From contig MNZB01000004.1 of the NCBI GenBank assembly GCA_001873435.1, forward strand, positions 307,004 through 371,003: 64,000 nt of DNA. The letters are read 5' to 3'. The stretch is from Candidatus Pacebacteria bacterium CG2_30_36_39 (lineage in GTDB: Bacteria; Patescibacteriota; Microgenomatia; UBA1400; PJMF01). A model generated the notes under the pieces. The model had not been told where the DNA came from. It ran no database searches and saw nothing but the letters and a program-made list of their open reading frames with translations. Positions 905 to 39,898 of the stretch are shown one piece after another (within the stretch, counting starts at the first letter, position 1; every line of letters begins with the position of its first letter). The translations under genes and the position numbers were made by a program.

Positions 905-924
905 AATCATATAAAAGTAATACA

Positions 925-1389: not shown

Positions 1390-1390
1390 T

Positions 1391-1792: not shown

Positions 1793-1794
1793 AC

Positions 1795-2202: not shown

Positions 2203-2203
2203 T

Positions 2204-2551: not shown

Positions 2552-2564
2552 AAAAAACGTTTTT

Positions 2565-2593
2565 GACGTAGGACAGCAAAACTTGATACAATA
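2565..2593 (+). promoter_or_regulatory. Sigma-70-like promoter upstream of paralog 6.
   Basis: TTGACG at 2565-2570, a 17-nt spacer, then TACAAT at 2588-2593. Confidence 0.4.
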
Positions 2594-2645
2594 ACAAAGA
2601 ATTTAGGTTTAATAGTAAAAAAAGTAAACGTAAAAAAAGGAAAAT

Positions 2646-3050: not shown

Positions 3051-3069
3051 TCTCTCAATTTTGAGCATT

Positions 3070-3099
3070 AAAACCCCGTCGCAAGGCGGGGTTTTTGGT
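3070..3099 (+). terminator. Rho-independent terminator.
   Basis: AAAACCCCGUC-GCAA-GGCGGGGUUUUU: a 7-bp GC stem with a GCAA tetraloop and a U-run. Confidence 0.7.
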
Positions 3100-3123
3100 T
3101 ATATTCTCCAAAAGCATTAAGCC

Positions 3124-19869: not shown

Positions 19870-20889
19870 TTAAACGGATCTTATTTCCAATGGTGTAATG
19901 ATTTTGCCGCTTAAAGTTAAAGTTTTTTCAGTAAATTGAAAATCTGTTTTTTCGACAGAAATAATATAAGTGCCATTAGGAAGGGCAGTGCTCAAACTAA
20001 ATTGTCCCAATAAATTAGTTTTTAATGAGGAGACAACCTGTCCCTGGGTTGTTTTTATTGTTATCACTGCTTGATCAACCAACTTATTGTCTTGAGTTAA
20101 AACCATACCAACAATAGTATTTGGAGTAGTTGGTTGTTTTGGAAAAGGAAGACTTTCGTTGGTGGAGATTGTTTCTTTTGGAATTTCTATCGTTTTGTTA
20201 ATAGGGATTGTTTCTGGAACTGGCTGCAGGATTGTTTTGTCTGCTGAGGCAATCTCAATTTTTTTATTAGTTTGTTGTTGCTGTTGAAAAATAATGTTTT
20301 CAGAGTTTTCAACCATGTCTTGACTTTTTTTAGCCAAATTTCTTACTTTTGGTACTAAATTTGGTTTTACTTTTCTTGGCGTTGCAGTTATTTCTGTTAC
20401 CTGAACATTTTCATAAAGAGCCAAAACATCTCTAATTTTTATGTTTTCTTCATCATCAAAGGAGTCGGTGGGTTTTTGATCTCCTACAGAACTAAGGTAT
20501 TCTTTAATTCTTTGTCTACGAGCTGGGGTTAAATCAATTTCAAAAGCTTCCTCTTCCTTGGTTTTTTCTCTTTTTTGGTGAGTAAAGGCAAATGGAATTT
20601 CTGTTTCTTTTTTCCAATAATATTTAGTTGGGTTATAAATAATCTTAAAAAATGTAGTAATCCAGTGATCCAAAGGTCTTTCTTCTATTGGAACAAAGGC
20701 GATAATTACACCAAATCCAGCCGAGAGAATAATAAGAGTCCATTTAACAATGCCTATTAAATTGGTGTTGTAAATAATTACAGCAATCACCACACCCAAA
20801 GCAACCTCTGCAAATTGCTTTAAGGTCATATTGCCAACAATATGAAATTTATATCCCACAACGTCTTGTGGAATTGGATGATCACGCAT
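19870..20889 (-). CDS. PrgI/VirB3-like T4SS membrane protein with a C-terminal carboxypeptidase-regulatory-like beta-sandwich domain.
   Basis: N-terminus IPQDVVGYKFHIVGNMTLKQF followed by two TM helices, a PrgI-family pattern. The C-terminus TIVGMVLTQDNKLVDQAVITIKTTQGQ...GQFSLS.LPNGTYIISVEKTDF fits the CarboxypepD_reg-like motif. Confidence 0.5.
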   Translation of the reverse strand: MRDHPIPQDVVGYKFHIVGNMTLKQFAEVALGVVIAVIIYNTNLIGIVKWTLIILSAGFGVIIAFVPIEERPLDHWITTFFKIIYNPTKYYWKKETEIPFAFTHQKREKTKEEEAFEIDLTPARRQRIKEYLSSVGDQKPTDSFDDEENIKIRDVLALYENVQVTEITATPRKVKPNLVPKVRNLAKKSQDMVENSENIIFQQQQQTNKKIEIASADKTILQPVPETIPINKTIEIPKETISTNESLPFPKQPTTPNTIVGMVLTQDNKLVDQAVITIKTTQGQVVSSLKTNLLGQFSLSTALPNGTYIISVEKTDFQFTEKTLTLSGKIITPLEIRSV

Positions 20890-20964: not shown

Positions 20965-21972
20965 CTATTCAACTTTTACTGCTGGAGTGATAATTTCAGC
21001 GTCTATTATTTTTCCTTCATTGCTAAACAACTTTCCCACAAAGTGATAGAAAGGGTAAGCAATTTTTTGATTTAAGTCAGCTCGATATTCAATAGTAACA
21101 CTAGTTAAATCTCCAGATTCTATTTCTTTTAAAGAGATGGTTCCAGTTTCTTTATTATATGCGGAGATGATTGAAGCTTCTTGTCTATTATTTATATTGT
21201 CTATTGCCTCATTAATTGGAATGGTGGTCAAGTTTTTTTCGGTTAATAGCGGATAAATAAATTTATCTTGGAAAACTATTTTTTGAACTTCATAATCACT
21301 GTTTATTAATACTGATATAGCAGCCTGTTTTTGATGTTCTAGAAACAAGGGGATATTATTAATTGTATAGATGAAAGGTACTTCAATAATTGTTGTTTCA
21401 CCAAAAGATACTTCTCTAAGTTCTCCAATTCCATAAAAACGCTTAATTCCACCTTTGTACATAGTTAAAGGAAGGCTGTTAAAAACAGTTTTTACAAAGT
21501 CTTGAGCAACTTTTGTTGCTTTGTTTGTTTCAGAAATAAGATTGTCTTTTGGTGAGAAATTGGAATAAAAAAGATATGAATCATCTTGAGTATTATATGA
21601 GAGAGTAAACTTCTCACCTTTCCAAAGACCTGGTACATCAGGCACTATTTTTAGTGAATGCTCTTTTATTAATTGATCCTTTAGATATTCAGCTGTAATA
21701 GTGCTGGGACTAATTGTTGCTAACGGATATTTTGGTTTTGCTTCTGGAACTTCACCTGTAAAACGAATATTTTTAAATCTGGTTTGATCTCCGCCATTAT
21801 TTGTTATTACAAAATCTGTTTTGGGAATTATTGTTTCTTTTGGAGTAAAAATAGTAAAGAGTGTTGTTAAAACTAAGCCAACAACACTAATTCCAATCAA
21901 TATCACATACCATTTTTTTTCAGCTAAAAATGTTTTTTGAGTTTTATTCATAACATGTCCTAACTGGATCAT
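20965..21972 (-). CDS. Bitopic membrane protein; a possible VirB8-like T4SS component.
   Basis: 335 aa. Single N-terminal TM WYVILIGISVVGLVLTTLFTIF with a large extracytoplasmic domain. The call rests on position in the cluster only. Confidence 0.3.
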   Translation of the reverse strand: MIQLGHVMNKTQKTFLAEKKWYVILIGISVVGLVLTTLFTIFTPKETIIPKTDFVITNNGGDQTRFKNIRFTGEVPEAKPKYPLATISPSTITAEYLKDQLIKEHSLKIVPDVPGLWKGEKFTLSYNTQDDSYLFYSNFSPKDNLISETNKATKVAQDFVKTVFNSLPLTMYKGGIKRFYGIGELREVSFGETTIIEVPFIYTINNIPLFLEHQKQAAISVLINSDYEVQKIVFQDKFIYPLLTEKNLTTIPINEAIDNINNRQEASIISAYNKETGTISLKEIESGDLTSVTIEYRADLNQKIAYPFYHFVGKLFSNEGKIIDAEIITPAVKVE

Positions 21973-24900
21973 TTACTTTAACACTTGCTCCGTCTGGCAT
22001 TAAAGATGGTAAAGTTCCAGAATTTGGTGGACTACCAATTAAACCAAAATGTAGGTGAGGGCCAGAAGAATTACCAGTATTTCCCATGACTCCTAAAATT
22101 TCTCCAGCAGAAACACTTTTGCAAGAAAGAGTGTTTGAAGATCTCATGTGAGCTAATACAAAACTACCTTCAGCAGATTTTAAAACCACATGAATTCCAT
22201 AGCCTGGATCCATATTTCCAGGACAGGCTTCTCCATCAAAAGGAGCAAAAATTGGTGTACCTTCGCTATTAGCAATGTCAAAAGCATCAACTCTCTGATG
22301 TGAATAACTACCACCTGGTAGCTGAGTAATAGTTCCACTGGCGGGCCAACAACCAGCACCTTGAGAATAATCACCGATATAAACTACTTCACCAGTAATA
22401 GCGTTATCAGTGCCTTCCACACCCGTTTCTGGATCCTTAGCGAAGATTTTTAAATCAAAAGTATTTAAAATTGAGGCATTATCATATTTTTCATCAAATG
22501 TTTCTGAATAAGAGAGAACAACCGACTCTCCTGGAGTAATAACCATTTCCTCATATAATTCTGGAAAGTCAGTTAAATTTTTTATTCTATCTGGAATTGT
22601 TGGGGGAGTTTTGCCCTCCTCTTCCCAAGCCTTTTTGCTGTGGTTAACTTTTAAGGTGTCTTTGGCATCTAAAACTTGTAAAGTAAAGTTTCCTTTTGGA
22701 GTAATAGTGATCGTGTATTCAACTTTTAAAGGAAAGGCTGGGTTTTCACATTTGTTTTCTGGACAACCAGCAATAAATGCTCTTTTTTCAATAGTGACAT
22801 ATTCTGACTCTTTGCCCGGAGTAGAACCAGAAACAGTACTTAGAGGATCAACAATGGGGAAGTTGGCTAATAGAGCACCAGATTGAACGGCGTGTAAAAG
22901 TAGATTTCCCCCAGTAATTAAACCAGCTGATGTTAATACTGCTTGGGTTGCGATGTGGGTTACTGATTTGGTTACAATTAAATTTGAATGGGGAATGGCA
23001 TTGTTGATTGCTGCTTTTTTTGCCAAAGCGCTATTTGCAGCCGAGATCGATGAACTAGTGCTTGGAACATGAATGGCTGACGCACTTTTGGCACCACTAA
23101 ATAAATCACCAAACCATTTTTCTGCACCATATCCAAGCCAACCTCCACCAATGGCTCCAGCCAAGGCTCCGCCTGGGCCTCCAAAAATACCTCCCAAAAC
23201 TCCACCAAGGGTTGCACCAATACGACCACCCCATGTTAGTAGTGGAACAATCAAAGATCCAAGTCCTAAGCCACCACCAATTAATAAGGCCTGGCGACCC
23301 TTTTTTGTGGTAGCTATTTTTGCAAAGAAACCAAGAGCTGGGTGAATAGCTGTTCCAGCAGCAGCAGCTCCACTGCTCAAACCAGCTTCTGCAGCCTTTT
23401 CAGCCGCTTTAGCAGCTGCCTTTTTACTTAGTCTTGAGCTAACACCATTAATTCCTCTTTTGAGTTTGTTTCCCAATCCAGCCGTTTGTTTTCTAAAAGA
23501 TTTAATACTAGATAGTGGAGACCTAATAACTCCAGCTTGGGGAATGTATTGAGATTCATAGCCGTTGGCTTGAGATTGATCGTAAGATGCTGCGGCTCCG
23601 CCAATTAGAGGAGCTAAATCATGAATTGCTAACTCTCGTGGAACAAAATTAACATCATTGGCAATGTTTTTAACTGCATTGCCACCGGCTTCTCCATACC
23701 CCAAAGCAACGAGAATTTGTTCTCTTTCTTCGTATTGTATGTTTTCCCAGACACTTTTTAAAAAAGCTTCTTTTTTCTTACTATCTATTAGTGGGCTTTT
23801 ACCGTTGGTTAGTTCAACTATTTCTCCTGGGTTGGAAGAAATAGCTTTTGCTCCAACCATGGTTTTGTTAGTTGGAGCTGCTACTCCTCTAGCAAAAACC
23901 TGATTACTTTTACTAGCTGATATCTCGCCCTTGCTTTTATCTAGTAAATCTAGGGCTTCTCTAGTAGCAAATCTAGCTTCATTGTGTAATAAGATTTGTC
24001 CAGTTTTTCGGCCAAGAATTGATCTGCGAGCAATCCAAATTTCTTGTAATGATTCATAAATATCTGGTCTAAAAGGTATTTCATCACCAAAAATCAAGCG
24101 AAAGCGACCTTCATCAATGTATTTTAATAGTTCAATTGGGTAGGCCTGATCAATCCAGGAATCAATTACGTTAACAACGTTTGTTTTTGAAAGTGCCAAA
24201 CGATCGTCTCTAACACCAATTCTTCGAAGCTCTGTTTCAAGTAGCTTGTCTGTTTCTTTGGTTAGATAGTCAACGTCTCCGCTAGCAAGTTTGTCTCCAG
24301 AGAGACTAGTTAAGATTTCTTGTTCTTTAGAATTTTCAAAAACCCCAGAAAAACTTTGAATAAGGGGGCTTATATCTTCTCCCTGAGAGGCTCTTTCAAT
24401 TGCATTTTCTATTTGTTCTTTAATTTTGGGGTCGGTATTTCCTTTAACTATGTCTTCTAGTCTGTTTGAGATTAAAGAAGTGGTACGAAAATCGTTTTGT
24501 ACCATCCAAATATATTCTCGAATGAGAGTTAGTCTAGTTTCTGGATCAAGTAGGTTTTTATGTTTTCCATCTCCAATTACGGTAAGGAAAAAACCAGTTG
24601 TTTTTTGTGAAAGTAACTCACGAAGTTCTCTAGAATTCTGTAGGGTTCCAGGCGGTAATTTATGAAAAATTTCTAATTGAACAAGGGCTATTTCAGTAAA
24701 ATTAACAGACTGCTCTCTTAAAGCCGGACTAAATAGTTGGCTTTTAATATCAAGTAATTCTTCTGGTTTTGTTTCTTTTTTTTCTTCTAGTGGTCTATTT
24801 TCTTCGTCTTTACCTTCGTTTTCAGCGTTTTCTTCCTCGTTTTCTTGAGCCTGAGTAGTTCCGGTTGCAACCACTGCTGTATCCACCGATTGGGTTTCTT

Positions 24901-25450
24901 CTTCGTCCTCCTCTTTTTCTTCTTCTTCCTCTTTTTTTTCTGTTTTTTCTAAAGCGGCGATTAAAAATCTGGCTACTGGTTTAATATAGTCAGTTAATAA
25001 TGAGTTGAGATAGCGATCATCGTCTTTTGAAATTTCTAGATCAAAATCATGTGATTTACAGTAATCAATAATGGCAGTGGCTTTTTTTAGAACATCCGTT
25101 GGGGCTTCTTTTGTATAAAAAGATAGGATTGTTTGTGGATCGCCGCCTATTAATTTGTAATAAATGTCAGCGAATAAAAAAGCTAAATCGCTTTTATATA
25201 AAAAGAAGCCGGGATCTTCTTTGTCTTTCTCATCAGTGTCTTTTCTGTTTTTAGTTGTGTAATAGAGAGTGTCTAGGGAATAACTTTTAAAGAGTTGTGC
25301 ATACGAAAAATTGATTTGGGCTTCTTCTTTAATGTCTGTGTTGAGAATTAGTTTTAAAAAACCAATTGCTGATTCTTTGGTTAAACCATCAACAGCTCTT
25401 TTTAAAGCATAACGACCATTAGCTAGTGTGTATGAAGCATCATCAGCCAT
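21944..25450 (-). CDS. Giant transmembrane protein with a C-terminal M23 (LytM) peptidoglycan endopeptidase domain; a T4SS-associated cell-wall hydrolase of the PrgK/TraG class.
   Basis: 1168 aa. C-terminus GSYSHQRVDAFDI...GIHVVLKSAEGSFVLAHM...MGNTGNSSGPHLHFGL, the M23 HxxxD / HxH motifs. Central Gly-rich TM region GGGLGLGSLIVPLLTWGG...GGIFGGPGGALAGAIGGGWLGYG. Acidic N-terminal cytoplasmic part of about 700 aa. Confidence 0.7.
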   Translation of the reverse strand: MADDASYTLANGRYALKRAVDGLTKESAIGFLKLILNTDIKEEAQINFSYAQLFKSYSLDTLYYTTKNRKDTDEKDKEDPGFFLYKSDLAFLFADIYYKLIGGDPQTILSFYTKEAPTDVLKKATAIIDYCKSHDFDLEISKDDDRYLNSLLTDYIKPVARFLIAALEKTEKKEEEEEKEEDEEETQSVDTAVVATGTTQAQENEEENAENEGKDEENRPLEEKKETKPEELLDIKSQLFSPALREQSVNFTEIALVQLEIFHKLPPGTLQNSRELRELLSQKTTGFFLTVIGDGKHKNLLDPETRLTLIREYIWMVQNDFRTTSLISNRLEDIVKGNTDPKIKEQIENAIERASQGEDISPLIQSFSGVFENSKEQEILTSLSGDKLASGDVDYLTKETDKLLETELRRIGVRDDRLALSKTNVVNVIDSWIDQAYPIELLKYIDEGRFRLIFGDEIPFRPDIYESLQEIWIARRSILGRKTGQILLHNEARFATREALDLLDKSKGEISASKSNQVFARGVAAPTNKTMVGAKAISSNPGEIVELTNGKSPLIDSKKKEAFLKSVWENIQYEEREQILVALGYGEAGGNAVKNIANDVNFVPRELAIHDLAPLIGGAAASYDQSQANGYESQYIPQAGVIRSPLSSIKSFRKQTAGLGNKLKRGINGVSSRLSKKAAAKAAEKAAEAGLSSGAAAAGTAIHPALGFFAKIATTKKGRQALLIGGGLGLGSLIVPLLTWGGRIGATLGGVLGGIFGGPGGALAGAIGGGWLGYGAEKWFGDLFSGAKSASAIHVPSTSSSISAANSALAKKAAINNAIPHSNLIVTKSVTHIATQAVLTSAGLITGGNLLLHAVQSGALLANFPIVDPLSTVSGSTPGKESEYVTIEKRAFIAGCPENKCENPAFPLKVEYTITITPKGNFTLQVLDAKDTLKVNHSKKAWEEEGKTPPTIPDRIKNLTDFPELYEEMVITPGESVVLSYSETFDEKYDNASILNTFDLKIFAKDPETGVEGTDNAITGEVVYIGDYSQGAGCWPASGTITQLPGGSYSHQRVDAFDIANSEGTPIFAPFDGEACPGNMDPGYGIHVVLKSAEGSFVLAHMRSSNTLSCKSVSAGEILGVMGNTGNSSGPHLHFGLIGSPPNSGTLPSLMPDGASVKVNDPVRTCYE

Positions 25451-31007: not shown

Positions 31008-32732
31008 TTAGTCAACTGCTTTATCAGTTGCTCTTGGATGTGGCTTAGTAGTTCCGCCCTCTTTTTTATTAAGAAGTTTATCAAGTATTTTGGTTGAATC
31101 TTGAGGGTCAAATAAATTTCCACTTCTTGCTTGATCAAAAAATACACGACCCTTTTTGCCTGTTTCAACATCGCCGCTCCATCCTTGTAGAACTCCACCG
31201 GCTCTAATGTCTCGGCCATTCTCATCTTTCTCTCCAGTCTTAGCTCCTCGCCATAAGCTATCTGTAAGAAATGCTCTTGGGTTTTGTCTACCATACGACA
31301 TAATTCCAGCCTTTGCTGCACCTCCAACCGCACCAATTGCACCCGTTGCCAATGGCAAAGCAGGTTCTCCAGCTGCCATATTTTTAACAGCTTTAAAGGC
31401 CAAGGTTTCCCAAATACCACCATCAATTTTCATGGCTTTTTTCATTTCAACAATCAACTCTGGAATTACCAAAATAATACCTATGCCAACCAAAGTCATA
31501 ATAACTCCTCCGGACCCGCGACCAATTAAATATGGAGGTAAGAATCCACCACTATTAATATCTCCCTTGGTAAACAATTCATAGAGAATTAGAGAAAATA
31601 AAACCATTGGAAAAGCCATTAGGTTGCCAAAAACAATCTTTATCCAATAACCAAAATTACTTTTTCCTGGTAAAGCTCCCATCATTAATAAAACTGGAGC
31701 AACAACTATAGCAATAATTATGGTGATATAAATTTTGAGAAGATCAAAGAATAATTTGAATACGCCAATTAAAATAGCAACGGAGACGATTAAACCCAAT
31801 GTAAGACCCCCCAGCCATCCCAAAACATCTCCAACAGCGCCCGTATCAATGGCACCAGCAAAGCTCTTAACTGCTTCATTCATATTAGCAAAAGCACCAC
31901 TGCCATTAACTCCAGTTACCAAATCCCAGCCAATTTGTAAGAAGTTTTTACTAAGCAAATCAACACCACTATCTGGTCTGAATAAACCAATCATTAAATA
32001 CATAATTAAATACATCAAATCAATTAAAAATCCAGCGATGGCATAAGAAAAAGTGACGAAAATTAAAGAAACAATAATTCCAGGAATAGCTTGTTGAGCC
32101 GTAACCACGGTTTGTCCACCAAGATTTTGACGGAACATGATCATAAAACCAATAACCAGGAAAATTACTACAAAAAAGAAATAAGCAATGTTGCGGAACA
32201 CTTTCCAAGCCTCAAGTACTGGATCAAGTGAAGAGAAGCCCAATCCCTGAGCATGTGCTTGAGGAATAATATGAGCATCTTCCAATAAAGTGGCCACATA
32301 GGTAACTCCAGAGGCTGGAGGATTATAAAGCATGGCCAAAGCTTGAGTTGTTTCACCAATCGCTCCGCGTCCATATTTAGCATAAACAATCTTTTTTTGT
32401 TCATCAGTCATTTTTTGCACAGTTGGAGAATTTTCTGGCACGCCATTTAATTTTAAATAAGCATCTGCCTCCCAAGCATTTGATGTTTCTGGAACAAAAG
32501 AATTGAGTGAGACAGCTCCTGTTTCATCGGCGGCAACCTGTGCCTCAAGAGTATTGCTGGTATTTTGTTCAATGCCAGTAACCTCCATAAACCACTGGAC
32601 TAAGTCAAGGGCTTTAACAGGTTTAGCAGTCAAAAAAGATGCTGTAATAAAGAAGGCTATGAGAATAATTAACCGGGTGAGGCTTTTCATTGCTTTTATA
32701 TTGTACGTCAAGAAAACAAAAAGCAAAACCAT
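31008..32732 (-). CDS. VirB6/TrbL-like polytopic membrane protein.
   Basis: 574 aa. Signal peptide MKSLTRLIILIAFFITASFLTA (the likely true start is this Met, about 32690), a periplasmic domain of about 150 aa, at least 6 TM helices, and a hydrophilic C-terminal tail. The architecture resembles the VirB6, TraL or PrgH class. Confidence 0.45.
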   Translation of the reverse strand: MVLLFVFLTYNIKAMKSLTRLIILIAFFITASFLTAKPVKALDLVQWFMEVTGIEQNTSNTLEAQVAADETGAVSLNSFVPETSNAWEADAYLKLNGVPENSPTVQKMTDEQKKIVYAKYGRGAIGETTQALAMLYNPPASGVTYVATLLEDAHIIPQAHAQGLGFSSLDPVLEAWKVFRNIAYFFFVVIFLVIGFMIMFRQNLGGQTVVTAQQAIPGIIVSLIFVTFSYAIAGFLIDLMYLIMYLMIGLFRPDSGVDLLSKNFLQIGWDLVTGVNGSGAFANMNEAVKSFAGAIDTGAVGDVLGWLGGLTLGLIVSVAILIGVFKLFFDLLKIYITIIIAIVVAPVLLMMGALPGKSNFGYWIKIVFGNLMAFPMVLFSLILYELFTKGDINSGGFLPPYLIGRGSGGVIMTLVGIGIILVIPELIVEMKKAMKIDGGIWETLAFKAVKNMAAGEPALPLATGAIGAVGGAAKAGIMSYGRQNPRAFLTDSLWRGAKTGEKDENGRDIRAGGVLQGWSGDVETGKKGRVFFDQARSGNLFDPQDSTKILDKLLNKKEGGTTKPHPRATDKAVD

Positions 32733-33626: not shown

Positions 33627-36272
33627 TTAACGAATATTGCCACAATCTAACTTGAATGTGTCCATCGTACAAACACAGTAGTTTGCGCCGCCACAACCAT
33701 CAACTTCCTCGTAACCAGCGCAAGCGTCAGTTGTAAGATATTCTGTTGGCACACCATAGTTCCTACCAGCCATCATATAATATAGTTGTTGGGTAGATGG
33801 GGTAGTGCCATGAACGGCTTTGTATTGTTCTACTAGCCAACCTCTTTCTGATTTTCTTTTACGAAGCACATATTCCATTGAAGTTTTAATGTCGCAACCA
33901 ATGTCTGGATTATTTCTTGCCTCTTGAACCCATGGATCAGAAGTATCATCAGCAATGTATGCTGCTTGTGGACAGCCAGCTTTATCAATGCATTGGGGGA
34001 TAAGGACACCAACAATTCCTGAAGCGCCACAGGCATTGGTAATTATTTCTCCACAACTCATTTCTTTTTCTCCAGCCAAAATCTTTCTTAACATAGGACT
34101 TCCCTCGATTTGTAAAAAGCCCCAAAGCATCTGCGCATCATTTGGATCATTGCCAGCTACACTACAAGTCATTTTCATTAATTCATTCATAGTTGGTAGC
34201 TTCGTTGTTCTTCCCTTAATCTCATCACAAGATTCTTCTTCTCCAGTACCAGGCTCCTCATTGTTTCGATCATATCCTTTGCAGCGACCTAAGAATAAGT
34301 CTTCAGTTCTTTCACAAGAAGTAACATATTCATAAGTTTTTGATCCCATCTCACGGAAATACTCTTGAATTTTTCTAATTGTCCAACCAAGTTCAGCCCC
34401 CAAAATTCTCATTGGCTCATCTGGATGCTCAACTGTTACACCAGTAAACTGTTTTCTTTCACAAGGAATACAGTCACCCTCATCTTCATCTTTTTTATTA
34501 CAACTCTCAGAACAACCGGGTGGTTGGTGGTAAATAAAGCTAAAGGTATCTGTTTTACTTTTTAAATTAGCGCTAGTATTTATAAACGTTAGATATTCAG
34601 GAATAATTCCGCAGGCTCCATTAAAATCTGGTACACAGTTGTTTTCGACGATTGTTTTGAATTGTTCAGTAGTAAATAGTTGCTGTAAAGTTTTATTAAT
34701 GTATTCCATATCAGCTCCATATGGAGTAATGAGATGGCCTCTAACAGCAATTGGATCAGCATCGAGATCACCGTTAACTACGGTGTCTTTAACAATAATA
34801 TTCCAATCAAAGGTATATTTATTATCAGAGGGGAAAGTGAAAGAGAAGAAAGGATCTCTTAACTCTCTTTGTTCTGGGTCGACAATGGCCATAGAACCCA
34901 ATTCACTAACAATTTCATAAGAACCATTGAAGCCAGCACAGTCTAAACCACTACCATTAACCTGATCTATTAAAGATCTCATGAGGATTTTGTCTGGAGC
35001 ACCGCCAATACATTGAGGCAATCCGCCACAATTAATAATGGCATCTTTTTTTCCTTCTCGAACAGCCAAGATATCACCCAAAAATTCTTTACGATCTTTT
35101 TTCATTTCATCAATGTGAGCTTGGATTCTGTCTGGCTCACTATATAGATAGCTGGTTAGTCTTGCCGAATCCATAAGCCCAGGCATCGAAAAAATCATAT
35201 TGGTTGCTGTCATTGGAACTTTGAAGCCAATAACAATTGGAGCATGTTTTTTAACTGGCATTCTTGGATGCTGAGCTGGGTTTGGCTCTGGTTTAATGAT
35301 TTGTAAAAAGTCAAAAATATCAGCATTAGATTCAAATAGAGCAGGATTGACCAACTCATTCCCTTCCATAACATTTTGTTTGATAGAAACAATTAAGAAA
35401 GCCAGGCGATACATGCCATCTAGATTTAAAGGAGCAGCTGTAATAGCGCTTCTCACTGGAGACACATCTGTTTTGTAATCGTTTTCGCTAATCCCAAACT
35501 CTTCTTCCATTTCTGGATTCCAGACACCCATGATTTCTGTACAGCTAAAGTTTTTATCTGGATTGGTTTTGCTTTTAATGTTTAACAATCCATGCATTTC
35601 AGCAAAAAGCACTAATCCACCATAATCAGTTCCTGGAATTTCTACTTGATTAACATAACAAGGGGAGCCAGGATCTTTAAATTTGTCACAAAAATATCTG
35701 TTATAGATACTATATAAATTATTGTATTTCACTATACATTGCTGACTTGGAGACATAAGTGATGTAGCTGCTCCAGCAGAGTTTAGTTCGGCTGGCTGAG
35801 TTTGTTGGTTATTAGCTCCAAAAAAACCATCATATGAAGAAACCTTTGTTGTGTTAGGAAAATCTTCATCTCCTTGAAACAGAGGAATTTTGCCTTCTGC
35901 AAATCTTCCATCATAAACAGCTTCAGCAGTCAGTCGAACTGGTTTGTCATATTCTTCAAAATATTCTTCAATTGCTCCGTGAACTTGGCCATTAATCCAC
36001 CATTTTGGTTTAACACACTGAACTTCATATCCTTGGTTGTAAGCCATTTGATAAGTAATAGTATCTTGAACAGTGCCAGTATCTCCAAGAGAATAGCCTT
36101 CTTCTAAAACGAGGGGTAAGTAGTTATATATTTCTGGATTTTTTCTAGCGTAATTAACAGCATCATCACTAGAAGCTGCTTGAATTTGTGAAACTCTACC
36201 AACGAGTAAATATCCTGTTAGGAAAAACAAAAACAATGGTCTTAACATTGAAGATTTTGATTTCACAATCAT
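33627..36272 (-). CDS. Secreted Cys-rich large protein with a C-terminal lytic-transglycosylase (SLT/VirB1-like) region.
   Basis: 881 aa. Signal peptide ...FLFFLTGYLLVGRVSQIQA. More than 40 Cys residues. C-terminal LWGFLQIEGSP...ACGASGIVGVLIPQ resembles the SLT E-S...GA.GLMQ catalytic motif. Confidence 0.4.
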   Translation of the reverse strand: MIVKSKSSMLRPLFLFFLTGYLLVGRVSQIQAASSDDAVNYARKNPEIYNYLPLVLEEGYSLGDTGTVQDTITYQMAYNQGYEVQCVKPKWWINGQVHGAIEEYFEEYDKPVRLTAEAVYDGRFAEGKIPLFQGDEDFPNTTKVSSYDGFFGANNQQTQPAELNSAGAATSLMSPSQQCIVKYNNLYSIYNRYFCDKFKDPGSPCYVNQVEIPGTDYGGLVLFAEMHGLLNIKSKTNPDKNFSCTEIMGVWNPEMEEEFGISENDYKTDVSPVRSAITAAPLNLDGMYRLAFLIVSIKQNVMEGNELVNPALFESNADIFDFLQIIKPEPNPAQHPRMPVKKHAPIVIGFKVPMTATNMIFSMPGLMDSARLTSYLYSEPDRIQAHIDEMKKDRKEFLGDILAVREGKKDAIINCGGLPQCIGGAPDKILMRSLIDQVNGSGLDCAGFNGSYEIVSELGSMAIVDPEQRELRDPFFSFTFPSDNKYTFDWNIIVKDTVVNGDLDADPIAVRGHLITPYGADMEYINKTLQQLFTTEQFKTIVENNCVPDFNGACGIIPEYLTFINTSANLKSKTDTFSFIYHQPPGCSESCNKKDEDEGDCIPCERKQFTGVTVEHPDEPMRILGAELGWTIRKIQEYFREMGSKTYEYVTSCERTEDLFLGRCKGYDRNNEEPGTGEEESCDEIKGRTTKLPTMNELMKMTCSVAGNDPNDAQMLWGFLQIEGSPMLRKILAGEKEMSCGEIITNACGASGIVGVLIPQCIDKAGCPQAAYIADDTSDPWVQEARNNPDIGCDIKTSMEYVLRKRKSERGWLVEQYKAVHGTTPSTQQLYYMMAGRNYGVPTEYLTTDACAGYEEVDGCGGANYCVCTMDTFKLDCGNIR

Positions 36273-36309: not shown

Positions 36310-36738
36310 TTATAGAATTTTTAATCCGAAGATAGCTTCGAGTATTTGAGCTATCCAATATGAGGCAAAAAGCAGGATAAATCCCAAAATTGCCATAGTA
36401 ACTCTTTGTTTTCCAGCATCAAGGCTTTTGCCATTTGAGGCTCCGGCTAATATTTGCAATCCTCCTGCCACGATCATGACAAAAAGAGCTAGGCCAGCTA
36501 TTGGAAATACAAAGCTTAAGGCTCTGGAAATAATGCCTCCTGGAGTAGAGAGTTCTGCTGCATGGGGAGAGTTTTCTGTTTGTAGAGGATCAAAAGTATT
36601 GAGTACATCAGAAGTAACTTCAAAAGTATCAGCGTCTGGCAAACCACCATTGCCTTGGGCATTAATTATGGTTGGAGTAATAAAAGAAAAAACACCAACT
36701 AAAAAAGCAGTGGAAAGAAATAGAAGAGATTTTTTCAT
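36310..36738 (-). CDS. VirB2/TrbC-like pilin-family membrane protein, paralog 8.
   Basis: 142 aa. Signal MKKSLLFLSTAFLVGVFSFITPTIINA. TM1, loop ASNGKSLDAGKQRVTMA, TM2 ILGFILLFASYWIAQIL: the same architecture as the 572-3567 array. Confidence 0.45.
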   Translation of the reverse strand: MKKSLLFLSTAFLVGVFSFITPTIINAQGNGGLPDADTFEVTSDVLNTFDPLQTENSPHAAELSTPGGIISRALSFVFPIAGLALFVMIVAGGLQILAGASNGKSLDAGKQRVTMAILGFILLFASYWIAQILEAIFGLKIL

Positions 36739-36741
36739 AAT

Positions 36742-37989
36742 TTAGGTTCCAAATCCTGGAATATGGAAGAAGTTAACTCCTATAAATCTTAATAGGGTAA
36801 TAGACATAATGATAAAAATTAGACCAATGAGCGCCGCTGTAATTTGTTCCTTTGCATCTTTGGTGGCCTGAGGATCACCTTGAGATACGGACAATCTAAA
36901 TGCTCCAGCTAGAATTAATAGAAAGGTAGCACCTCCACCAATACTAATACCTATAGTAATAAAGGTTTTAATAATATTTTCTGGTTTGGCTGGAATACAG
37001 CCAATAGCAGTCCAAACTCCAGGTGTTCCACTTGATGTTCCGCCAAAACAGGCTTCACATTTACCGCGTTCAGCACCATCATTTATTTGTTCACAAAGTT
37101 CAAAGTCTCTAATGGTGGCATTTTGAGAAATATCAGTTCGAACATCAACACACATGTTTGTATCGCAGTAAGCTTCTAGGTTAAAAATAGCTTCACAGCC
37201 AGGAAATTTGAAGTTTGAGCCAGCCCTAACTTCTTCAACAAAAACAGTGTGTTTTCCAGTGTCGTCAGAAGTAAATTCTACTGAAGCCTTGCCTCCACTA
37301 GCATTAGTTTTTTTGTCTTGAACAACTTTGAACCATCCATCTACACCAACAACAAATCTAACTTCTCCGTTAAATGGGGTGCCGTCTGCCGCTTCTAGTC
37401 CTTCAACTTCGACGGTGGCTGTGTTTGAAGTAACATCCATACATCCTGGGGCATAACATTTTTTGCTGTTTTTAGTTTGATAAACATAGAGACTGCATTG
37501 ACCACCAGTGTTGTTTTTACTAGTTACATAAGTACCAACATCACAAAGTCTATTGCTTCCAGACAAGCCACTGTCATAGAGAAATACATAATGAATATCA
37601 TCTTCACCAGCCATTGGAGCAGCAGTTAGAGCTTCATTATCAGTAACAGTCCAAGTAACTACCTTATTGCTTACGGATATTCCACCAGGATAAGTTTTAT
37701 TTTGGTCAATTCTAAAGGAACTAGTTTGAGCCTCATCATCAGTGTTGGAAGTTGCTTTAATTTTTAGGTAGTATTCAGAATTTGGGTTGTAACCACTAGA
37801 CATGTCGATTTTAATAACATGAGAGCTGGTTCCAATGGGAAGTTTTTCTCCACCAGCTCCGGAAATAACTCCTTGGCAGGAAGAAGCATAAACATTATTT
37901 GTTGTGTTCAGAAATAGAGCCATGACAAGAAGGATCACTGATGTTTTTCGGAAAGCTGAAACTAAAAACAATGCCCAAGTGTTTTTCAT
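36742..37989 (-). CDS. Secreted Cys-containing domain of about 320 aa fused to a C-terminal VirB2-like pilin module; a candidate pilus-associated adhesin.
   Basis: 415 aa. Signal peptide. C-terminus ...GISIGGGATFLLILAGAFRLSVSQGDPQATKDAKEQITAALIGLIFIIMSITLL reproduces the two-helix plus charged-loop pilin core. Confidence 0.45.
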   Translation of the reverse strand: MKNTWALFLVSAFRKTSVILLVMALFLNTTNNVYASSCQGVISGAGGEKLPIGTSSHVIKIDMSSGYNPNSEYYLKIKATSNTDDEAQTSSFRIDQNKTYPGGISVSNKVVTWTVTDNEALTAAPMAGEDDIHYVFLYDSGLSGSNRLCDVGTYVTSKNNTGGQCSLYVYQTKNSKKCYAPGCMDVTSNTATVEVEGLEAADGTPFNGEVRFVVGVDGWFKVVQDKKTNASGGKASVEFTSDDTGKHTVFVEEVRAGSNFKFPGCEAIFNLEAYCDTNMCVDVRTDISQNATIRDFELCEQINDGAERGKCEACFGGTSSGTPGVWTAIGCIPAKPENIIKTFITIGISIGGGATFLLILAGAFRLSVSQGDPQATKDAKEQITAALIGLIFIIMSITLLRFIGVNFFHIPGFGT

Positions 37990-38143: not shown

Positions 38144-39898
38144 ATGTTGTTTAAGCACAGCAAATTACTCGTGCTGTTTTTACTGTTCTCAGTATTTTTT
38201 TTAGTCGGCGGCTTTCCTGGCTTTTTGGCAATGGCAACTGATCCTGTGGCTGATTTACAACAGCAAATCGATGAGTTGGAGCGGATGAAGCAAATGTCAG
38301 AAAGCGCGACGAAACCACTTGAACAAGAACTCACTTCTTTACAGAAAAAGATTTCTAATGCTCAACAAGGGATTATTGCTGCTGAAAAACAAACTAAAGA
38401 ATTGGAACAAAATATTATTAATAGGGAAGATGATTTAGCAGTGCAGTACATAATTTTTACTCATCGTATTGCTCAGCAGTACAAACGATCAAGAACTTTT
38501 TCTCCGTTGATGCTATTTTTCAATAGTACTGATGCCAGTAAATTAACTAAGAACCTCGCCTATAGCTCTTCGGTTCAAGCTCAAGATAATCATCTTATTC
38601 ATTCTTTAACACAAGAGATTTCTTCTTTGGAAGTAGACAAAAAGAAGCTTGAAAAAGACCAAATTACTTTGGCTTCATTACAAAAGCAACTATCTAGTCA
38701 AGCTGTTTTTTTTCAAGTAGAGATTAATAAAGCAAAGGATTATCAACAAGATTTAGCTGGAAAGATTGCCAATCTTTCTGCTCAGCAACAAGCAATTATT
38801 AGTGCTCGTTCTGGCACATCCATTACTTCAGTAGGAGAGGTTCCATTGGCCGATGATTTTAATGCTTCTATCGCTTATAAGTCTCAAGCTCCTGGCAATT
38901 CATTTGCTGTTTTTAGTTTTGGAGCTTATACCCACCGCAATGGTATGAGCCAGTATGGCGCCAAGGCCAGAGCAGAGGCCAATCAATCAGTGGAAGAAAT
39001 TTTGGCAGCATACTATCCAGGTACTTCAATTAAAAAAGATTATTCAGAAATGGGGGATATTTCTGTTCAAGGAGTTGGCTCTATTTCTTTTGAAGGACAA
39101 TATTTACAAGGAATCTATGAAATGCCAGGTTCTTGGCATATTAACGCTCTTAAAGCTCAAGCCATTGCAGCTCGTACTTTTGCGATCAAATATACTGATA
39201 ATGGTAGTAAATCAATTTGTACTACAGAGAGTTGTCAAGTTTTTAAAAATTCACCAAAGGGTGGGGATTGGGAAAAGGCTGTTAATGAAACAAAAAACTG
39301 GGTTTTGGTTGATGGCTCTGGTAATCCAGTTTCTACTCAATATGCTTCTACTCATGGTGGTTTTAGTAAGACTAGCGGTTGGGATACGACTGATAAATCA
39401 GGATCAAACGATTGGTCTACTAGAGCTTGGGAAAACAAAGCTGGTAGCCCATGGTTTTATAAAGCTTGGTATAGATCTGGATATTCAGCTAGCGGAGCTA
39501 GCTGTGGCAAATCACATCCGTGGCTATCGCAAGAAGAATTTACAGACATCATTAATGCTTGGATTGTACGTAAAAACCCCAATGGTGCAGACGTAAATAG
39601 AATTACTCCTACTACTATTAATGATTGTAATATTGGTGGCCAGGGAGGCAATCCATATTCAATTTCAGAACTAAGAGATAAGGCCAATGCATCTGGCGGA
39701 GCTGTAACAAATATTTCTGCTGTTTCTGTGAGTCATAGTGATAATGGTCAGACTTCAACAGTGAATTTTAGTACCAATAGGGGAGACATTTCTATTTCTG
39801 GCAGCGAATTTAAGGAAAGTTTTAACTTGAGAGCTCCTGGATATTTACGCATACCACAGAGTAGTTTTGCTTTCTTTAACATTGAACATAAAAACTAA
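38144..39898 (+). CDS. SpoIID/LytB-domain protein with an N-terminal coiled coil.
   Basis: 584 aa. N-terminal TM, a coiled coil of about 200 aa, then AYTHRNGMSQYGAKARAEANQSVEEILAAYYPGT: the GMSQYGA motif of SpoIID/LytB. Confidence 0.7.
   Translation: MLFKHSKLLVLFLLFSVFFLVGGFPGFLAMATDPVADLQQQIDELERMKQMSESATKPLEQELTSLQKKISNAQQGIIAAEKQTKELEQNIINREDDLAVQYIIFTHRIAQQYKRSRTFSPLMLFFNSTDASKLTKNLAYSSSVQAQDNHLIHSLTQEISSLEVDKKKLEKDQITLASLQKQLSSQAVFFQVEINKAKDYQQDLAGKIANLSAQQQAIISARSGTSITSVGEVPLADDFNASIAYKSQAPGNSFAVFSFGAYTHRNGMSQYGAKARAEANQSVEEILAAYYPGTSIKKDYSEMGDISVQGVGSISFEGQYLQGIYEMPGSWHINALKAQAIAARTFAIKYTDNGSKSICTTESCQVFKNSPKGGDWEKAVNETKNWVLVDGSGNPVSTQYASTHGGFSKTSGWDTTDKSGSNDWSTRAWENKAGSPWFYKAWYRSGYSASGASCGKSHPWLSQEEFTDIINAWIVRKNPNGADVNRITPTTINDCNIGGQGGNPYSISELRDKANASGGAVTNISAVSVSHSDNGQTSTVNFSTNRGDISISGSEFKESFNLRAPGYLRIPQSSFAFFNIEHKN

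What the first reader, a model, noticed from the sequence alone, without database searches (positions are those of the whole stretch)
36310..37989. Pilin-module fusion: a 320-aa secreted Cys-containing domain fused to a C-terminal VirB2-like two-helix pilin core, next to a stand-alone pilin paralog
The 415-aa protein ends with FLLILAGAFRLSVSQGDPQATKDAKEQITAALIGLIFIIMSI. That is the same helix, charged-loop, helix module seen in the small pilin-like proteins, but here it is preceded by a large extracellular domain. Such a fusion would place a globular head on a pilin subunit, a plausible tip adhesin built differently from classical VirB5.
Basis: seen in the sequence. Interest (0 to 1): 0.65.

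Follow-up and report, generated by a model that had tools for sequence, protein, structure and literature searches.

The report
Pilin carrying a swappable outer head
In an ultra-small (Patescibacteria) bacterium, the first pilin gene of its type IV secretion locus carries a ~300-residue two-domain head on a conserved pilin core; relatives carry many unrelated heads or none, so this may be the missing host-contact part of the machine.

Summary
ORF 36742-37989(-) encodes a 415-aa protein: a signal peptide, two Ig-like beta-sandwiches, a Cys-rich linker, and a C-terminal helix-loop-helix. That C-terminal module is truly homologous to the small pilins of the window. It scores hhalign 96.7% (E 4e-10), and 38 bits against a maximum of 19.7 in 2000 segment-preserving shuffles. 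The Pfam PF18895 T4SS_pilin hit is 25.3 bits, just under the 26.6 cutoff.

The protein belongs to a distinct "lead pilin" subfamily with the signature CxxC...WTAIGCIP...IPGFG-end. In Microgenomatia this is the first gene of the pilin operon, divergent from a SpoIID-like gene and followed by small pilins. The locus lies in a T4SS region (VirB4, PrgI/VirB3-like, candidate VirB6-like) next to dnaA.

Relatives at the same position are headless (136-154 aa) or carry other heads. Heads of 68 long members fall into 34 BLAST-distinct clusters on a conserved core. The head is the fastest-evolving part of the locus. Natural head-lead-small-small fusions suggest co-assembly.

VirB2-like pilin arrays in Patescibacteria are published. 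I found no description of head-bearing lead pilins. A role as tip adhesin is plausible but untested, and the VirB2 fold could not be confirmed. Verdict: new variant of a known kind.

The parts
36742..37989 (-). Head-bearing lead pilin, 415 aa (stop codon 36742-36744).
   Evidence: ORF. PF18895 hit 25.3 bits. 32 homologues found, 24 of them aligned. AF2 model with mean pLDDT 77.7.
37882..37989 (-). Signal peptide, residues 1-36, with a predicted signal peptidase I site after VYA.
   Evidence: Hydrophobic segment 5-27. An AxA-type site followed by Cys is conserved in the alignment. The database gene call P0001 starts 22 codons later, but homologues support the long start.
37510..37881 (-). Beta-sandwich domain 1, residues 37-160.
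   Evidence: AF2 strands with pLDDT about 90-96. Foldseek finds tandem Ig/FN3/MG-like hits at E about 2e-5. Mean pairwise identity in the family is 32%.
37174..37509 (-). Beta-sandwich domain 2, residues 161-272.
   Evidence: AF2 model. Weak Big_3_5, Filamin and Big_1 Pfam hits at 177-251. Mean pairwise identity 36%.
36985..37173 (-). Cys-rich linker, residues 273-335, with invariant C299, C311-x2-C314 and W326-TAIGC331-IP.
   Evidence: Invariant columns. The motif is shared with headless lead pilins. In the window it occurs only in this ORF.
36745..36984 (-). Pilin core, residues 336-415: helix 336-368, loop SQGDPQATKDAKEQ, helix 373-407, and the conserved IPGFG end.
   Evidence: AF2 models. 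hhalign against the small pilins 96.7%. Shuffle control. Mean pairwise identity 70%.
36310..36738 (-). Small stand-alone pilin, 142 aa, starting 3 nt after the lead pilin stop codon.
   Evidence: PF18895 26.9 bits. A pilin lies within 100 nt downstream of the lead pilin in 54 of 61 related loci.
33627..36272 (-). 881-aa secreted Cys-rich protein, third gene of the operon. Function unassigned.
   Evidence: Conserved downstream in L001 and L003 and in 16 of 61 loci by phmmer. It is 28% identical over 695 aa to a 1207-aa protein whose extra C-terminus hits SLT_3 weakly. It has no Pfam or NCBIfam hit itself.
38144..39898 (+). SpoIID/LytB-domain protein with an N-terminal coiled coil, divergently transcribed.
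   Evidence: PF08486 at E 5.7e-15. TIGR02669 110.6 bits. It lies divergently within 1 kb upstream of the lead pilin in 40 of 61 loci.
31008..32732 (-). Candidate VirB6/TrbL-like polytopic membrane protein, 574 aa.
   Evidence: 47% identical to the L003 558-aa protein, which has a weak TrbL hit. Weak NCBIfam hits to Mbov_0396 and MMCAP2_0566 conjugal transfer proteins.
16664..18712 (-). VirB4-type ATPase.
   Evidence: Hits P-loop_TraG, AAA_10 and CagE_TrbE_VirB.
18759..19817 (-). TrsD-like protein (resembles the N-terminal part of VirB4).
   Evidence: Weak NCBIfam hits to TrsD and to the VirB4 N-terminus.
19870..20889 (-). PrgI/VirB3-like protein with a C-terminal CarboxypepD_reg domain.
   Evidence: PF12666 27.2 bits and PF13620.
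21944..25450 (-). 1168-aa protein with a C-terminal M23 peptidase domain, a candidate cell-wall hydrolase of the T4SS.
   Evidence: PF01551 at E 1.5e-14.
572..3567 (+). Tandem array of seven small pilin paralogues. None has the WTAIGC or IPGFG signature.
   Evidence: phmmer. Six of the seven give a PF18895 hit, five of them above the cutoff. Motif scan.

Best explanation
The 415-aa protein is the head-bearing version of the 'lead pilin' of a Patescibacteria (Microgenomatia) type IV secretion system.

Proposed mechanism; all steps below are inferred:
1. It is exported by Sec and the 36-residue signal peptide is cut.
2. The ~300-residue head (two Ig-like sandwiches plus a Cys-rich linker whose conserved cysteines probably form disulfides) folds outside the cell.
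3. The C-terminal helix-loop-helix sits in the membrane with both ends out and the short polar loop in, as for VirB2/TraA propilins.
4. The T4SS (VirB4, PrgI/VirB3-like, VirB6-like) then draws pilin hairpins out of the membrane and polymerises the lead pilin together with the small pilins.
5. The conserved core is buried and the head is displayed on the outside.

There is one lead-type gene per locus examined and it is always the first pilin gene. The Cys-rich linker (CxxC...WTAIGCIP) and the IPGFG end are absent from all eight small pilins of this window. I therefore think it most likely acts as a low-copy initiator or cap subunit. T4SS pili grow from the base, so such a subunit would end up at the distal end. 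The variable head would make contact with the host cell.

Shown: homology of the core, the architecture, positional orthology with headless lead pilins, head diversity, fast head evolution, and natural fusions with small pilins.
Inferred: membrane topology, filament formation, stoichiometry, tip location, adhesion.

My estimates: about 0.9 that it is a PF18895-family pilin-type subunit with an external head; about 0.5 that it is built into a filament or conduit with the small pilins; about 0.3 that it sits at the tip.
For: Core homology.

Architecture and model.

T4SS context within 21 kb, beside dnaA. This agrees with the published Patescibacteria T4SS description (PMC12102498).

Subfamily signature and headless members at the same position (SpoIID | lead | pilins). 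In GTDB species genomes, of 61 loci with the motif, 40 have a divergent SpoIID upstream and 54 have a pilin directly downstream.

Scale: 2230 50%-identity cluster representatives at E<=1e-30. In the 140 single-module proteins among the top 150, the module is always within 15 residues of the C-terminus. Lengths run from 125 to 427 aa, and 62 of 140 are at least 250 aa.

Head modularity: 68 heads form 34 BLAST clusters with almost no Pfam hits. P0024 and P0016 share a 69%-identical core but have unrelated heads.

Evolutionary rate: the head is the fastest-evolving part of the locus, at 48% and 31% identity against 84% and 69% for the core and 47-72% for the neighbouring genes.

Rosetta-stone evidence: four cluster representatives, 39-47% identical to each other, encode head + lead module + two small-type modules in one ORF. 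This repeats the gene order. The one checked at DNA level (P0188) has no internal stop codon.

The published survey found no PrgB-like adhesin in Patescibacteria (PMC12102498), which leaves the contact function open.
Against: - No pilus built by a Patescibacteria T4SS has been shown. The reviews only raise the possibility (PMC12857230).
- The hairpin is modelled with modest confidence (pLDDT 52-74). Its Foldseek match to solved conjugative pilins is not significant (A. pernix pilus 8dfu, E 6.6).
- There is no PF04956 hit and no sequence match to solved pilins.
- The PF18895 score is 1.3 bits under Pfam's cutoff.
- First position in an operon is also typical of major pilins.
- The lead core is not more conserved than the orthologous small-pilin core (84/84% and 69/69%), so conservation does not single it out as an initiator.
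- The head fold is generic and says nothing about a ligand.
- Tandem 3- and 8-module proteins would fit a membrane-embedded assembly as well as a filament.
Confidence: 0.5

Rival explanations
1. It is a membrane-resident T4SS component or surface protein. The pilin-type hairpin is used only as a membrane anchor or as a docking piece for the VirB6/VirB3-VirB4 platform. The Ig-like stalk spans the wall and is never polymerised into a filament.
For: No Patescibacteria T4SS pilus has been observed. Proteins with 2, 3 or 8 tandem hairpins in one chain look like polytopic membrane proteins. The tandem Ig-like domains resemble wall-spanning stalks of Gram-positive surface proteins.
Against: The core is homologous to, and as conserved as, the small pilins. 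The module is always at the extreme C-terminus with a conserved exposed end. Headless lead pilins of 136-154 aa occupy the same position and have nothing to anchor. The pilin array is essential within the T4SS of S. epibionticum (PMC10633639).
Confidence: 0.25
2. It is the major filament subunit, not a minor one. Every subunit would carry a head, giving a sheathed filament with a conserved helical core and a variable outer domain, as in flagellin (D0/D1 versus D2/D3) or type IV pilins.
For: It is the first gene of the operon. Lengths run continuously from 125 to 427 aa on an invariant core, like flagellin hypervariable regions. The head evolves fastest.
Against: This point rests on my own estimate and recalled values, not on a tool result. 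By my rough estimate from remembered F-pilus dimensions (about 87 A diameter, five subunits per ~12-13 A layer), there is only about 700-1000 A2 of surface per subunit for a ~30 kDa head. That is tight, though not impossible.

One or more small pilins always follow and are sometimes covalently fused to the lead module, which argues for a heteropolymer.

The Cys-rich linker and IPGFG signature set the lead type apart from the eight small pilins of this window, seven of them in one array.
Confidence: 0.15
3. The N-terminal 300 residues are a pro-region or a separately released secreted protein. The mature pilin would be only the linker plus hairpin, after cleavage near WTAIGCIP.
For: VirB2/TraA/TrbC pilins have unusually long leaders and are proteolytically processed (established knowledge of those families). 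The most conserved motif lies exactly at the head-core junction.
Against: In headless members the same motif follows directly after an ordinary signal peptide, so it is part of the mature protein. The head is a well-folded pair of domains containing 7 of the protein's 12 Cys (the linker holds the other 5), which is unlike a leader. No protease site is known.
Confidence: 0.06
4. The resemblance is a chance similarity between two-helix membrane anchors, or the fusion is an assembly or gene-calling artefact.
For: Two-TM hairpins are compositionally simple. The Pfam score is just below the cutoff.
Against: The shuffle control gives 38.0 bits against a maximum of 19.7. hhalign gives E 3.9e-10. There are 24 homologues with the same architecture and identical copies on at least 20 contigs from several samples. 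The ORF is uninterrupted.
Confidence: 0.02

Closest known systems
VirB2-like pilins (Pfam PF18895 T4SS_pilin) and pilin arrays of Patescibacteria T4SS (Wang et al. 2023, PMC10633639; Quinonero-Coronel et al. 2025, PMC12102498)
   Same: Same Pfam family for the core. Same kind of locus: VirB4, TrsD, PrgI/VirB3 and VirB6-like genes next to dnaA. Tandem small pilins are present. Microgenomatia is among the classes richest in arrays.
   Different: The published descriptions treat the pilins as small proteins in divergent arrays. I found no mention of a distinct lead subfamily (CxxC...WTAIGCIP...IPGFG), of heads of 100-300 residues, of head swapping, or of the SpoIID linkage.
Classical VirB2/TrbC/TraA conjugative pilins (PF04956) of Gram-negative T4SS
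   Same: Signal peptide, two hydrophobic helices joined by a short polar loop, and encoded with a VirB4 ATPase. A relative (P0134) has modules that pass both PF18895 and PF04956.
   Different: No direct PF04956 hit and no significant fold match. The host is a monoderm. The protein carries a 300-residue N-terminal head, for which I found no precedent among classical VirB2 pilins in the searched literature. Cyclisation and phospholipid binding are unknown.
VirB5-type minor pilins and tip adhesins (e.g. VirB5, TraC, CagL)
   Same: The proposed role is the same: a low-copy subunit that nucleates or caps the T4SS pilus and contacts the target cell.
   Different: There is no sequence or fold relation: VirB5 is a helical bundle and not pilin-like. 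Here the polymerising part is itself a VirB2-type hairpin. Tip location is not shown.
Type IVb minor pilins with large extra domains (CofB, TcpB) and GspK of type II secretion (recalled from the literature, not tested)
   Same: The logic is the same: a pilin polymerisation module fused to bulky beta-rich domains, present in low copy, initiating assembly and sitting at the tip.
   Different: This is an unrelated pilin superfamily (N-terminal helix, prepilin peptidase site). No such site is present here, and the order is reversed (head N-terminal, core C-terminal).
Flagellin hypervariable outer domains (established knowledge of flagellin)
   Same: A conserved helical polymerisation core with an outer domain that ranges from absent to several hundred residues and differs in fold between lineages.
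   Different: Different machinery and fold. In flagellin the variable part is an insertion in the middle of the chain, and every subunit carries it.
Mycoplasma ICE pilin-like conjugal transfer protein (NCBIfam NF045849, Mbov_0395 family) with its neighbour Mbov_0396
   Same: The core at residues 338-403 gives a weak hit. The window's 574-aa protein weakly hits the neighbouring Mbov_0396/MMCAP2_0566 families. Both systems are monoderm MPF-FATA-type systems.
   Different: All scores are far below the curated cutoffs (22.8 against 40, and 20.8 against 70). The Mycoplasma proteins are about 80-residue proteins without heads.

Membership tests
Pfam PF18895 T4SS_pilin | Match to the family HMM at or above the gathering score (26.6 bits). 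| tested here: inconclusive
   This protein scores 25.3 bits at E 1.6e-5, which is 1.3 bits short. Most of its homologues carry the precomputed PF18895 hit. All 44 diverse long relatives hit it at E<=1e-3. The neighbouring 142-aa protein passes at 26.9 bits.
Pfam PF18895 T4SS_pilin | Homology of the helix-loop-helix module to bona fide family members. | tested here: met
   hhalign 96.7%, E 3.9e-10 against the window's small pilins. phmmer E 1e-7 to 4e-4 for seven of the eight small pilins; the eighth (572-904) gives only E 0.087. Shuffle control 38.0 bits against a maximum of 19.7.
Pfam PF18895 T4SS_pilin | Secreted or membrane protein encoded with T4SS genes. | tested here: met
   Signal peptide plus two TM helices. 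VirB4, TrsD-like, PrgI-like and candidate VirB6-like genes lie within about 21 kb.
Lead-pilin subfamily (defined here) | CxxC...WTAIGC[IV]P before helix 1 and IPGFG at the C-terminal end. | tested here: met
   C311-x2-C314, W326-TAIGC-IP and IPGFGT-end are present. In the window they occur only in this ORF.
Lead-pilin subfamily (defined here) | First pilin gene, divergent from a SpoIID-like gene and followed by small pilin(s). | tested here: met
   Window arrangement. Loci L001, L003, L004, L006 and L008. 40 of 61 and 54 of 61 loci respectively.
VirB2/TrbC/TraA conjugative pilins (PF04956) | Match to PF04956. | tested here: not met
   No hit for the 415-aa protein at E<=1. One window paralogue (2646-3050) gives 16.9 bits, below the cutoff. 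An indirect bridge exists: P0134 modules pass both PF18895 and PF04956 at 51.2 bits.
VirB2/TrbC/TraA conjugative pilins (PF04956) | Two hydrophobic helices joined by a short polar loop, preceded by a signal peptide. | tested here: met
   AF2 helices 336-368 and 373-407. Hydropathy analysis.
VirB2/TrbC/TraA conjugative pilins (PF04956) | Fold similarity to solved conjugative pilin structures. | tested here: inconclusive
VirB2/TrbC/TraA conjugative pilins (PF04956) | Small mature protein (roughly 70-120 residues) with no extra domain. | tested here: not met
   The mature protein is about 379 residues with two beta-sandwich domains.
VirB2/TrbC/TraA conjugative pilins (PF04956) | Polymerises into an extracellular pilus (with phospholipid in most cases). 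| not testable with these tools
   No multimer prediction or experimental data are available. No such pilus has yet been shown in Patescibacteria.
VirB5-type minor pilin or tip adhesin | Helical-bundle VirB5/TraC fold or family HMM match. | tested here: not met
   No such Pfam or NCBIfam hit. The model is beta-sandwich plus hairpin. Only a functional analogy is possible.
Type IV pilins, including CofB/TcpB-type minor pilins | N-terminal prepilin-peptidase site (G|F/M-T-L-I/L-E) and an N-terminal polymerisation helix. | tested here: not met
   No such motif in the first 60 residues. There is an ordinary signal peptide with an AxA-type site instead.
Sortase-assembled Gram-positive pilins | C-terminal LPXTG sorting signal. 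| tested here: not met
   No LPXTG anywhere in the protein; the C-terminus is ...HIPGFGT.

The most novel reading that the evidence does not exclude
Patescibacteria T4SS filaments are built on a dedicated lead pilin whose conserved VirB2-type core accepts interchangeable outer heads (more than 30 unrelated types, or none). These heads would be the host-recognition determinants of the machine that these epibionts need to live on other cells. That would make this the first adhesin-bearing conjugative-type pilin, filling the role of the missing VirB5/PrgB adhesin, with head type predicting host range.
Probability: 0.3. Interest if true: 0.8.

Novelty: new variant of a known kind. Interest (0 to 1): 0.6.

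Why it matters
The T4SS and its pilin array are essential for epibiotic growth of the one Patescibacterium tested genetically (PMC10633639). Its function is described as "completely unknown" (PMC11665869). The published survey found no adhesin for it (PMC12102498).

A single-copy pilin with a conserved polymerising core and a fast-evolving, exchangeable outer head is a concrete candidate for the part that touches the host. This gives testable handles:
- Recombinant heads can be used for binding assays.
- Head type can be compared with host co-occurrence in metagenomes.
- The lead pilin is a target for CRISPRi or labelling.

It would also extend the repertoire of VirB2-type pilins from bare two-helix subunits to domain-presenting ones, paralleling flagellins and type IV pilins.

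Tried and rejected
Searches that gave nothing useful:
- Profile searches of PDB sequences with the small-pilin profile and the lead-pilin profile gave only chance hits.
- Foldseek of the full model gave only generic Ig/FN3/MG sandwiches, with no ligand-binding clue.
- Foldseek of the isolated linker+core model gave nothing significant.
- Rfam on the whole window found no hits.
- The promoter and terminator scan of 33.4-38.4 kb was not above shuffles, so no operon boundaries are claimed from it.
- Pfam and NCBIfam on the 881-aa neighbour, whole or split, found nothing. I therefore do not call it VirB1-like. Only a relative's extra C-terminus hits SLT_3 weakly.
- The second word-index homologue search, with the 120-aa module, returned only 14 small proteins. 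These were useful as headless members but not for counting.
- Literature searches for PF18895, VirB2-like pilins in Patescibacteria, and conjugative pilins with globular domains found no description of head-bearing VirB2-type pilins. The library lacks most subscription journals, so this absence is weak evidence.

Ideas rejected:
- That the lead core is more conserved than the small-pilin cores. Orthologous comparison shows them equal.
- That multi-module proteins are read-through artefacts. P0188 has no internal stop in code 11, and four divergent representatives share the architecture.
- Sortase pilin and type IV pilin membership.
Full report
**What is at the coordinates**

Searches confirm two adjacent minus-strand ORFs. 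One is 36742-37989 (415 aa) and the other is 36310-36738 (142 aa). Only 3 nt separate the stop of the first from the ATG of the second. After a further 37 nt comes an 881-aa ORF (33627-36272).

The quoted peptide is present. The 415-aa protein has three hydrophobic segments: 5-27, 342-368 and 379-410. It has 12 cysteines, all upstream of the last two helices.

The database copy of the identical protein (P0001, 393 aa) starts 22 codons later. The alignment of 24 homologues keeps the longer N-terminus and an AxA-type cleavage site, so I use the 415-aa start.

**Is the C-terminal module really the same module as in the small proteins?**

Yes, on four lines of evidence.
- Pfam places residues 348-402 in PF18895 T4SS_pilin at 25.3 bits, with a cutoff of 26.6. 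The 142-aa neighbour scores 26.9 bits.
- phmmer with residues 321-415 finds the neighbour and six of the seven tandem small ORFs at 572-3567 at E 1e-7 to 4e-4. The seventh (572-904) scores only E 0.087 with this query, but E 6e-12 when the 142-aa pilin is the query. Nothing else in the window scores comparably.
- hhalign of the family C-terminal profile against the eight window paralogues gives 96.7% probability and E 3.9e-10 over 69 columns.
- A control kept the composition of each helix and of the loop. The real module scores 38.0 bits against the small-pilin HMM. The 2000 shuffles average 1.4 bits (sd 2.3, max 19.7), and the reversed sequence scores -0.8.

**Anatomy**

An AlphaFold2 model built on the 24-sequence alignment has mean pLDDT 77.7. 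It shows:
- a signal-peptide helix;
- two beta-sandwiches at about residues 38-160 and 165-272, with pLDDT mostly 80-96;
- a Cys-rich linker (273-335) with a short helix and a beta-hairpin;
- two long helices (336-368 and 373-407) at lower confidence (52-74).

Foldseek against the PDB returns only generic tandem Ig/FN3/macroglobulin-type sandwiches at E about 2e-5. These include complement C5 MG domains, filamin and intimin D0-D1.

Within the family, mean pairwise identity rises along the chain: 32% and 36% in the sandwiches, 47% in the linker and 70% in the pilin core.

**Context**

The window is a Patescibacteria chromosome segment around dnaA (14986-16497), dnaN, rnpA and yidC. It carries a monoderm-type T4SS:
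- VirB4 (16664-18712);
- a TrsD-like protein (18759-19817);
- a PrgI/VirB3-like protein (19870-20889);
- a 1168-aa M23-peptidase protein (21944-25450);
- a candidate VirB6/TrbL-like protein (31008-32732).

This is the arrangement published for Patescibacteria: a T4SS near dnaA, VirB2-like pilins, and tandem pilin arrays that are especially abundant in Microgenomatia (PMC12102498). In Southlakia epibionticum the pilin array and the T4SS are essential (PMC10633639; PMC12857230).

Homologues of the 415-aa protein come from Pacebacteria, Woesebacteria, Gottesmanbacteria, Levybacteria and unclassified Microgenomates or Patescibacteria MAGs.

The linker plus core carries a signature: CxxC, then WTAIGC[IV]P just before helix 1, and IPGFG at the very end. 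This signature is absent from the eight small pilins of the window.

Searching with the last 120 residues found small proteins of 113-207 aa with the same signature at 39-46% identity.

Two of them, P0041 (136 aa) and P0033 (154 aa), occupy the same genomic position as the 415-aa gene. That position is directly after a divergently transcribed SpoIID-like gene, as the first gene of the pilin row.

The same synteny holds for 2-Ig-head homologues at 52%, 38% and 35% identity.

In a scan of GTDB species genomes, 61 loci carried a motif-bearing ORF. Of these, 40 had SpoIID within 1 kb upstream on the other strand, and several of the rest are cut by contig ends. 54 had another pilin within 100 nt downstream, and 16 had a recognisable 881-aa homologue.

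So the 415-aa protein is the positional orthologue of a headless lead pilin with a head added.

**Heads are many and interchangeable**

A profile of the lead module was searched against 1.84 billion cluster representatives. It found 29,670 proteins at E<=1e-3, which includes general PF18895 members, 6,864 at E<=1e-10 and 2,230 at E<=1e-30.

Among the best 150, 140 have one module. It always lies within 15 residues of the C-terminus. Lengths run continuously from 125 to 427 aa, with 62 at least 250 aa and 16 at least 350 aa.

The N-terminal parts of 68 long members fall into 34 clusters by BLAST (E<=1e-5, at least 50% coverage). The window's two-sandwich head is one cluster of six.

Pfam recognises almost nothing in these heads: one MG2 hit and one defensin-like hit among 44 proteins.

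P0024 and P0016 share a C-terminal 124 residues at 69% identity but have unrelated heads. That is what domain exchange on a conserved core would give.

Between the same genome pairs, the head is the fastest-evolving piece of the locus:

| Part | Identity vs L001 / L003 |
|---|---|
| Lead head | 48% / 31% |
| Lead core | 84% / 69% |
| Small-pilin core | 84% / 69% |
| 881-aa protein | 72% / 50% |
| SpoIID-like | 62% / 47% |
| VirB6-like | 66% / 48% |

The same comparison corrects an idea I had entertained. The lead core is not more conserved than the orthologous small-pilin core.

**Evidence for working together with the small pilins**

The two genes are 3 nt apart, and a pilin follows the lead gene in 54 of 61 loci.

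Four cluster representatives, 39-47% identical to each other (P0049, P0141, P0174, P0188), encode a head, a lead-type module and two small-type modules in one ORF. This repeats the gene order. P0188 translates without stops in code 11. P0141 is followed by yet more small pilins.

Such Rosetta-stone fusions argue that lead and small modules sit side by side in one assembly with the same topology.

They do not say whether that assembly is a filament. An 820-aa protein with eight modules (P0134) would fit a membrane ring as well. P0134 is useful in another way: three of its modules pass both PF18895 and PF04956 TrbC/VirB2 at 51.2 bits. This ties the two families together indirectly.

**How it most likely works**

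All of the following is inferred.
1. Sec export and signal-peptide cleavage take place.
2. The head folds outside the cell, probably stabilised by disulfides.
3. The hairpin stays in the membrane with both ends out, as known for VirB2/TraA propilins.
4. The T4SS extracts the hairpin and polymerises it with small pilins.
5. The head is exposed on the outside.

I favour a low-copy initiator or cap role. The reasons are one lead gene per locus examined, a special linker and C-terminal end, and a bulky head. Base-growing T4SS pili carry their first subunits to the tip. The published survey found no PrgB-type adhesin in this phylum.

My estimates are about 0.9 for "pilin-family subunit with an external head", about 0.5 for "built into a filament or conduit with the small pilins", and about 0.3 for "at the tip".

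The rivals are a membrane-resident component (0.25), a major subunit forming a sheathed filament in the manner of flagellin outer domains (0.15), a cleaved pro-region (0.06), and chance or artefact (0.02, rejected).

**Comparison with known families**

Membership in PF18895 is supported by homology, but this protein's own score is 1.3 bits short of the cutoff.

Membership in classical VirB2/TrbC is not established:
- no PF04956 hit;
- no sequence match to solved pilins;
- an insignificant Foldseek match, with the A. pernix conjugation pilus 8dfu at E 6.6;
- the small-size criterion fails.

It is not a VirB5, not a type IV pilin (no prepilin-peptidase site) and not a sortase pilin (no LPXTG).

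Functionally the nearest precedents are VirB5 tip proteins, type IVb minor pilins with large domains (CofB, TcpB; recalled from the literature, not tested) and flagellin outer domains.

A weak NCBIfam hit links the core to the Mycoplasma ICE 'pilin-like conjugal transfer protein' (22.8 bits against a cutoff of 40). Weak hits also link the 574-aa protein to its neighbour family. These are a lead only. They hint that pilin-like proteins may belong to monoderm MPF-FATA systems more generally.

**Novelty and verdict**

The building blocks are known and annotated. PF18895 exists, NCBI calls one homologue 'pilin', and pilin arrays in Patescibacteria are published.

In the searchable literature I did not find any of the following: the lead-pilin subfamily, its fixed position next to SpoIID, the widespread N-terminal heads, their diversity and exchange, or the natural lead-small fusions.

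I rate this a new variant of a known kind, with interest 0.6. It is not a one-off oddity of this window but a common, undescribed architecture. It offers a concrete candidate for the host-contact element of an essential but functionally unknown machine. The tip-adhesin reading remains a hypothesis.

Noticed in passing
window 572-3567 (+), next to uppS at 3574-4296 (-): A tandem array of seven small PF18895-type pilins lies 33 kb from the lead pilin, on the other side of dnaA. In relatives (L018, L027, L034, L038) seven pilins follow the lead pilin directly. In L008 the pilins abut uppS. The window's arrangement therefore looks like a split of an ancestral SpoIID | lead | array | uppS block.
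   Followed up: partly
window 38144-39898 (+): A SpoIID/LytB-domain protein with a long N-terminal coiled coil lies divergently adjacent to the lead pilin in 40 of 61 related loci. [quoted passage not shown] This lytic-transglycosylase-type enzyme is a candidate substitute for opening the cell wall.
   Followed up: partly
window 33627-36272 (-): An 881-aa secreted, very Cys-rich protein is conserved as the third gene of the operon. It has no Pfam or NCBIfam hit. A 1207-aa relative (L004 5268-8891) has an extra C-terminal SLT_3-like domain. The window protein's own C-terminus (about 665-881) has SLT-like-looking motifs by eye, which I did not verify.
   Followed up: partly
P0134 (820 aa); P0049, P0141, P0174, P0188; L085 224-1654; L086 923-2374; P0031 and P0032 (Saccharibacteria): Some proteins consist of 2, 3 or 8 tandem pilin hairpins in one chain, without internal signal peptides. 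It is unclear how a 16-helix 'poly-pilin' could enter a helical pilus. This may point to a membrane-embedded or ring-like assembly.
   Followed up: partly
window 36745-36984 (-), 31008-32732 (-), 18759-19817 (-): Weak, below-cutoff NCBIfam hits link three window proteins to Mycoplasma ICE and related families. The pilin core hits Mbov_0395 'pilin-like conjugal transfer protein'. The 574-aa protein hits Mbov_0396/MMCAP2_0566. The 352-aa protein hits TrsD and the VirB4 N-terminus. If real, the pilin-like gene may be ancestral to monoderm MPF-FATA systems rather than borrowed from diderm T4SS, as the published survey left open.
   Followed up: no
L018, L028, L034, L039, L049, L052, L084 (ORF directly downstream of the lead pilin): Second-position pilins can also be long, at 244-334 aa by longest-ORF estimate. 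N-terminal extensions are therefore not restricted to the lead subfamily.
   Followed up: no
window 37924-37989 (-): The public gene call for the identical protein (P0001, 393 aa) starts at Met23 and loses most of the signal peptide. Automated annotation of this family may therefore miss secretion signals.
   Followed up: yes
window 19870-20889 (-): The PrgI/VirB3-like protein carries a C-terminal CarboxypepD_reg (Ig-like) domain. The same combination appears in L006, so another T4SS membrane component also has an external beta-sandwich.
   Followed up: no
window 12000-16000: Cumulative GC skew reaches its minimum around 12-16 kb, where rnpA, yidC, dnaN and dnaA lie. This is consistent with the replication origin lying inside the window, between the pilin array and the rest of the T4SS.
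   Followed up: no
L014, L015, L018 and many other loci: Many contigs with clearly Patescibacteria-type loci are titled 'uncultured Pseudomonadales' or 'Gammaproteobacteria' in their TPA MAG records. These look like placeholder or wrong organism names.
   Followed up: no
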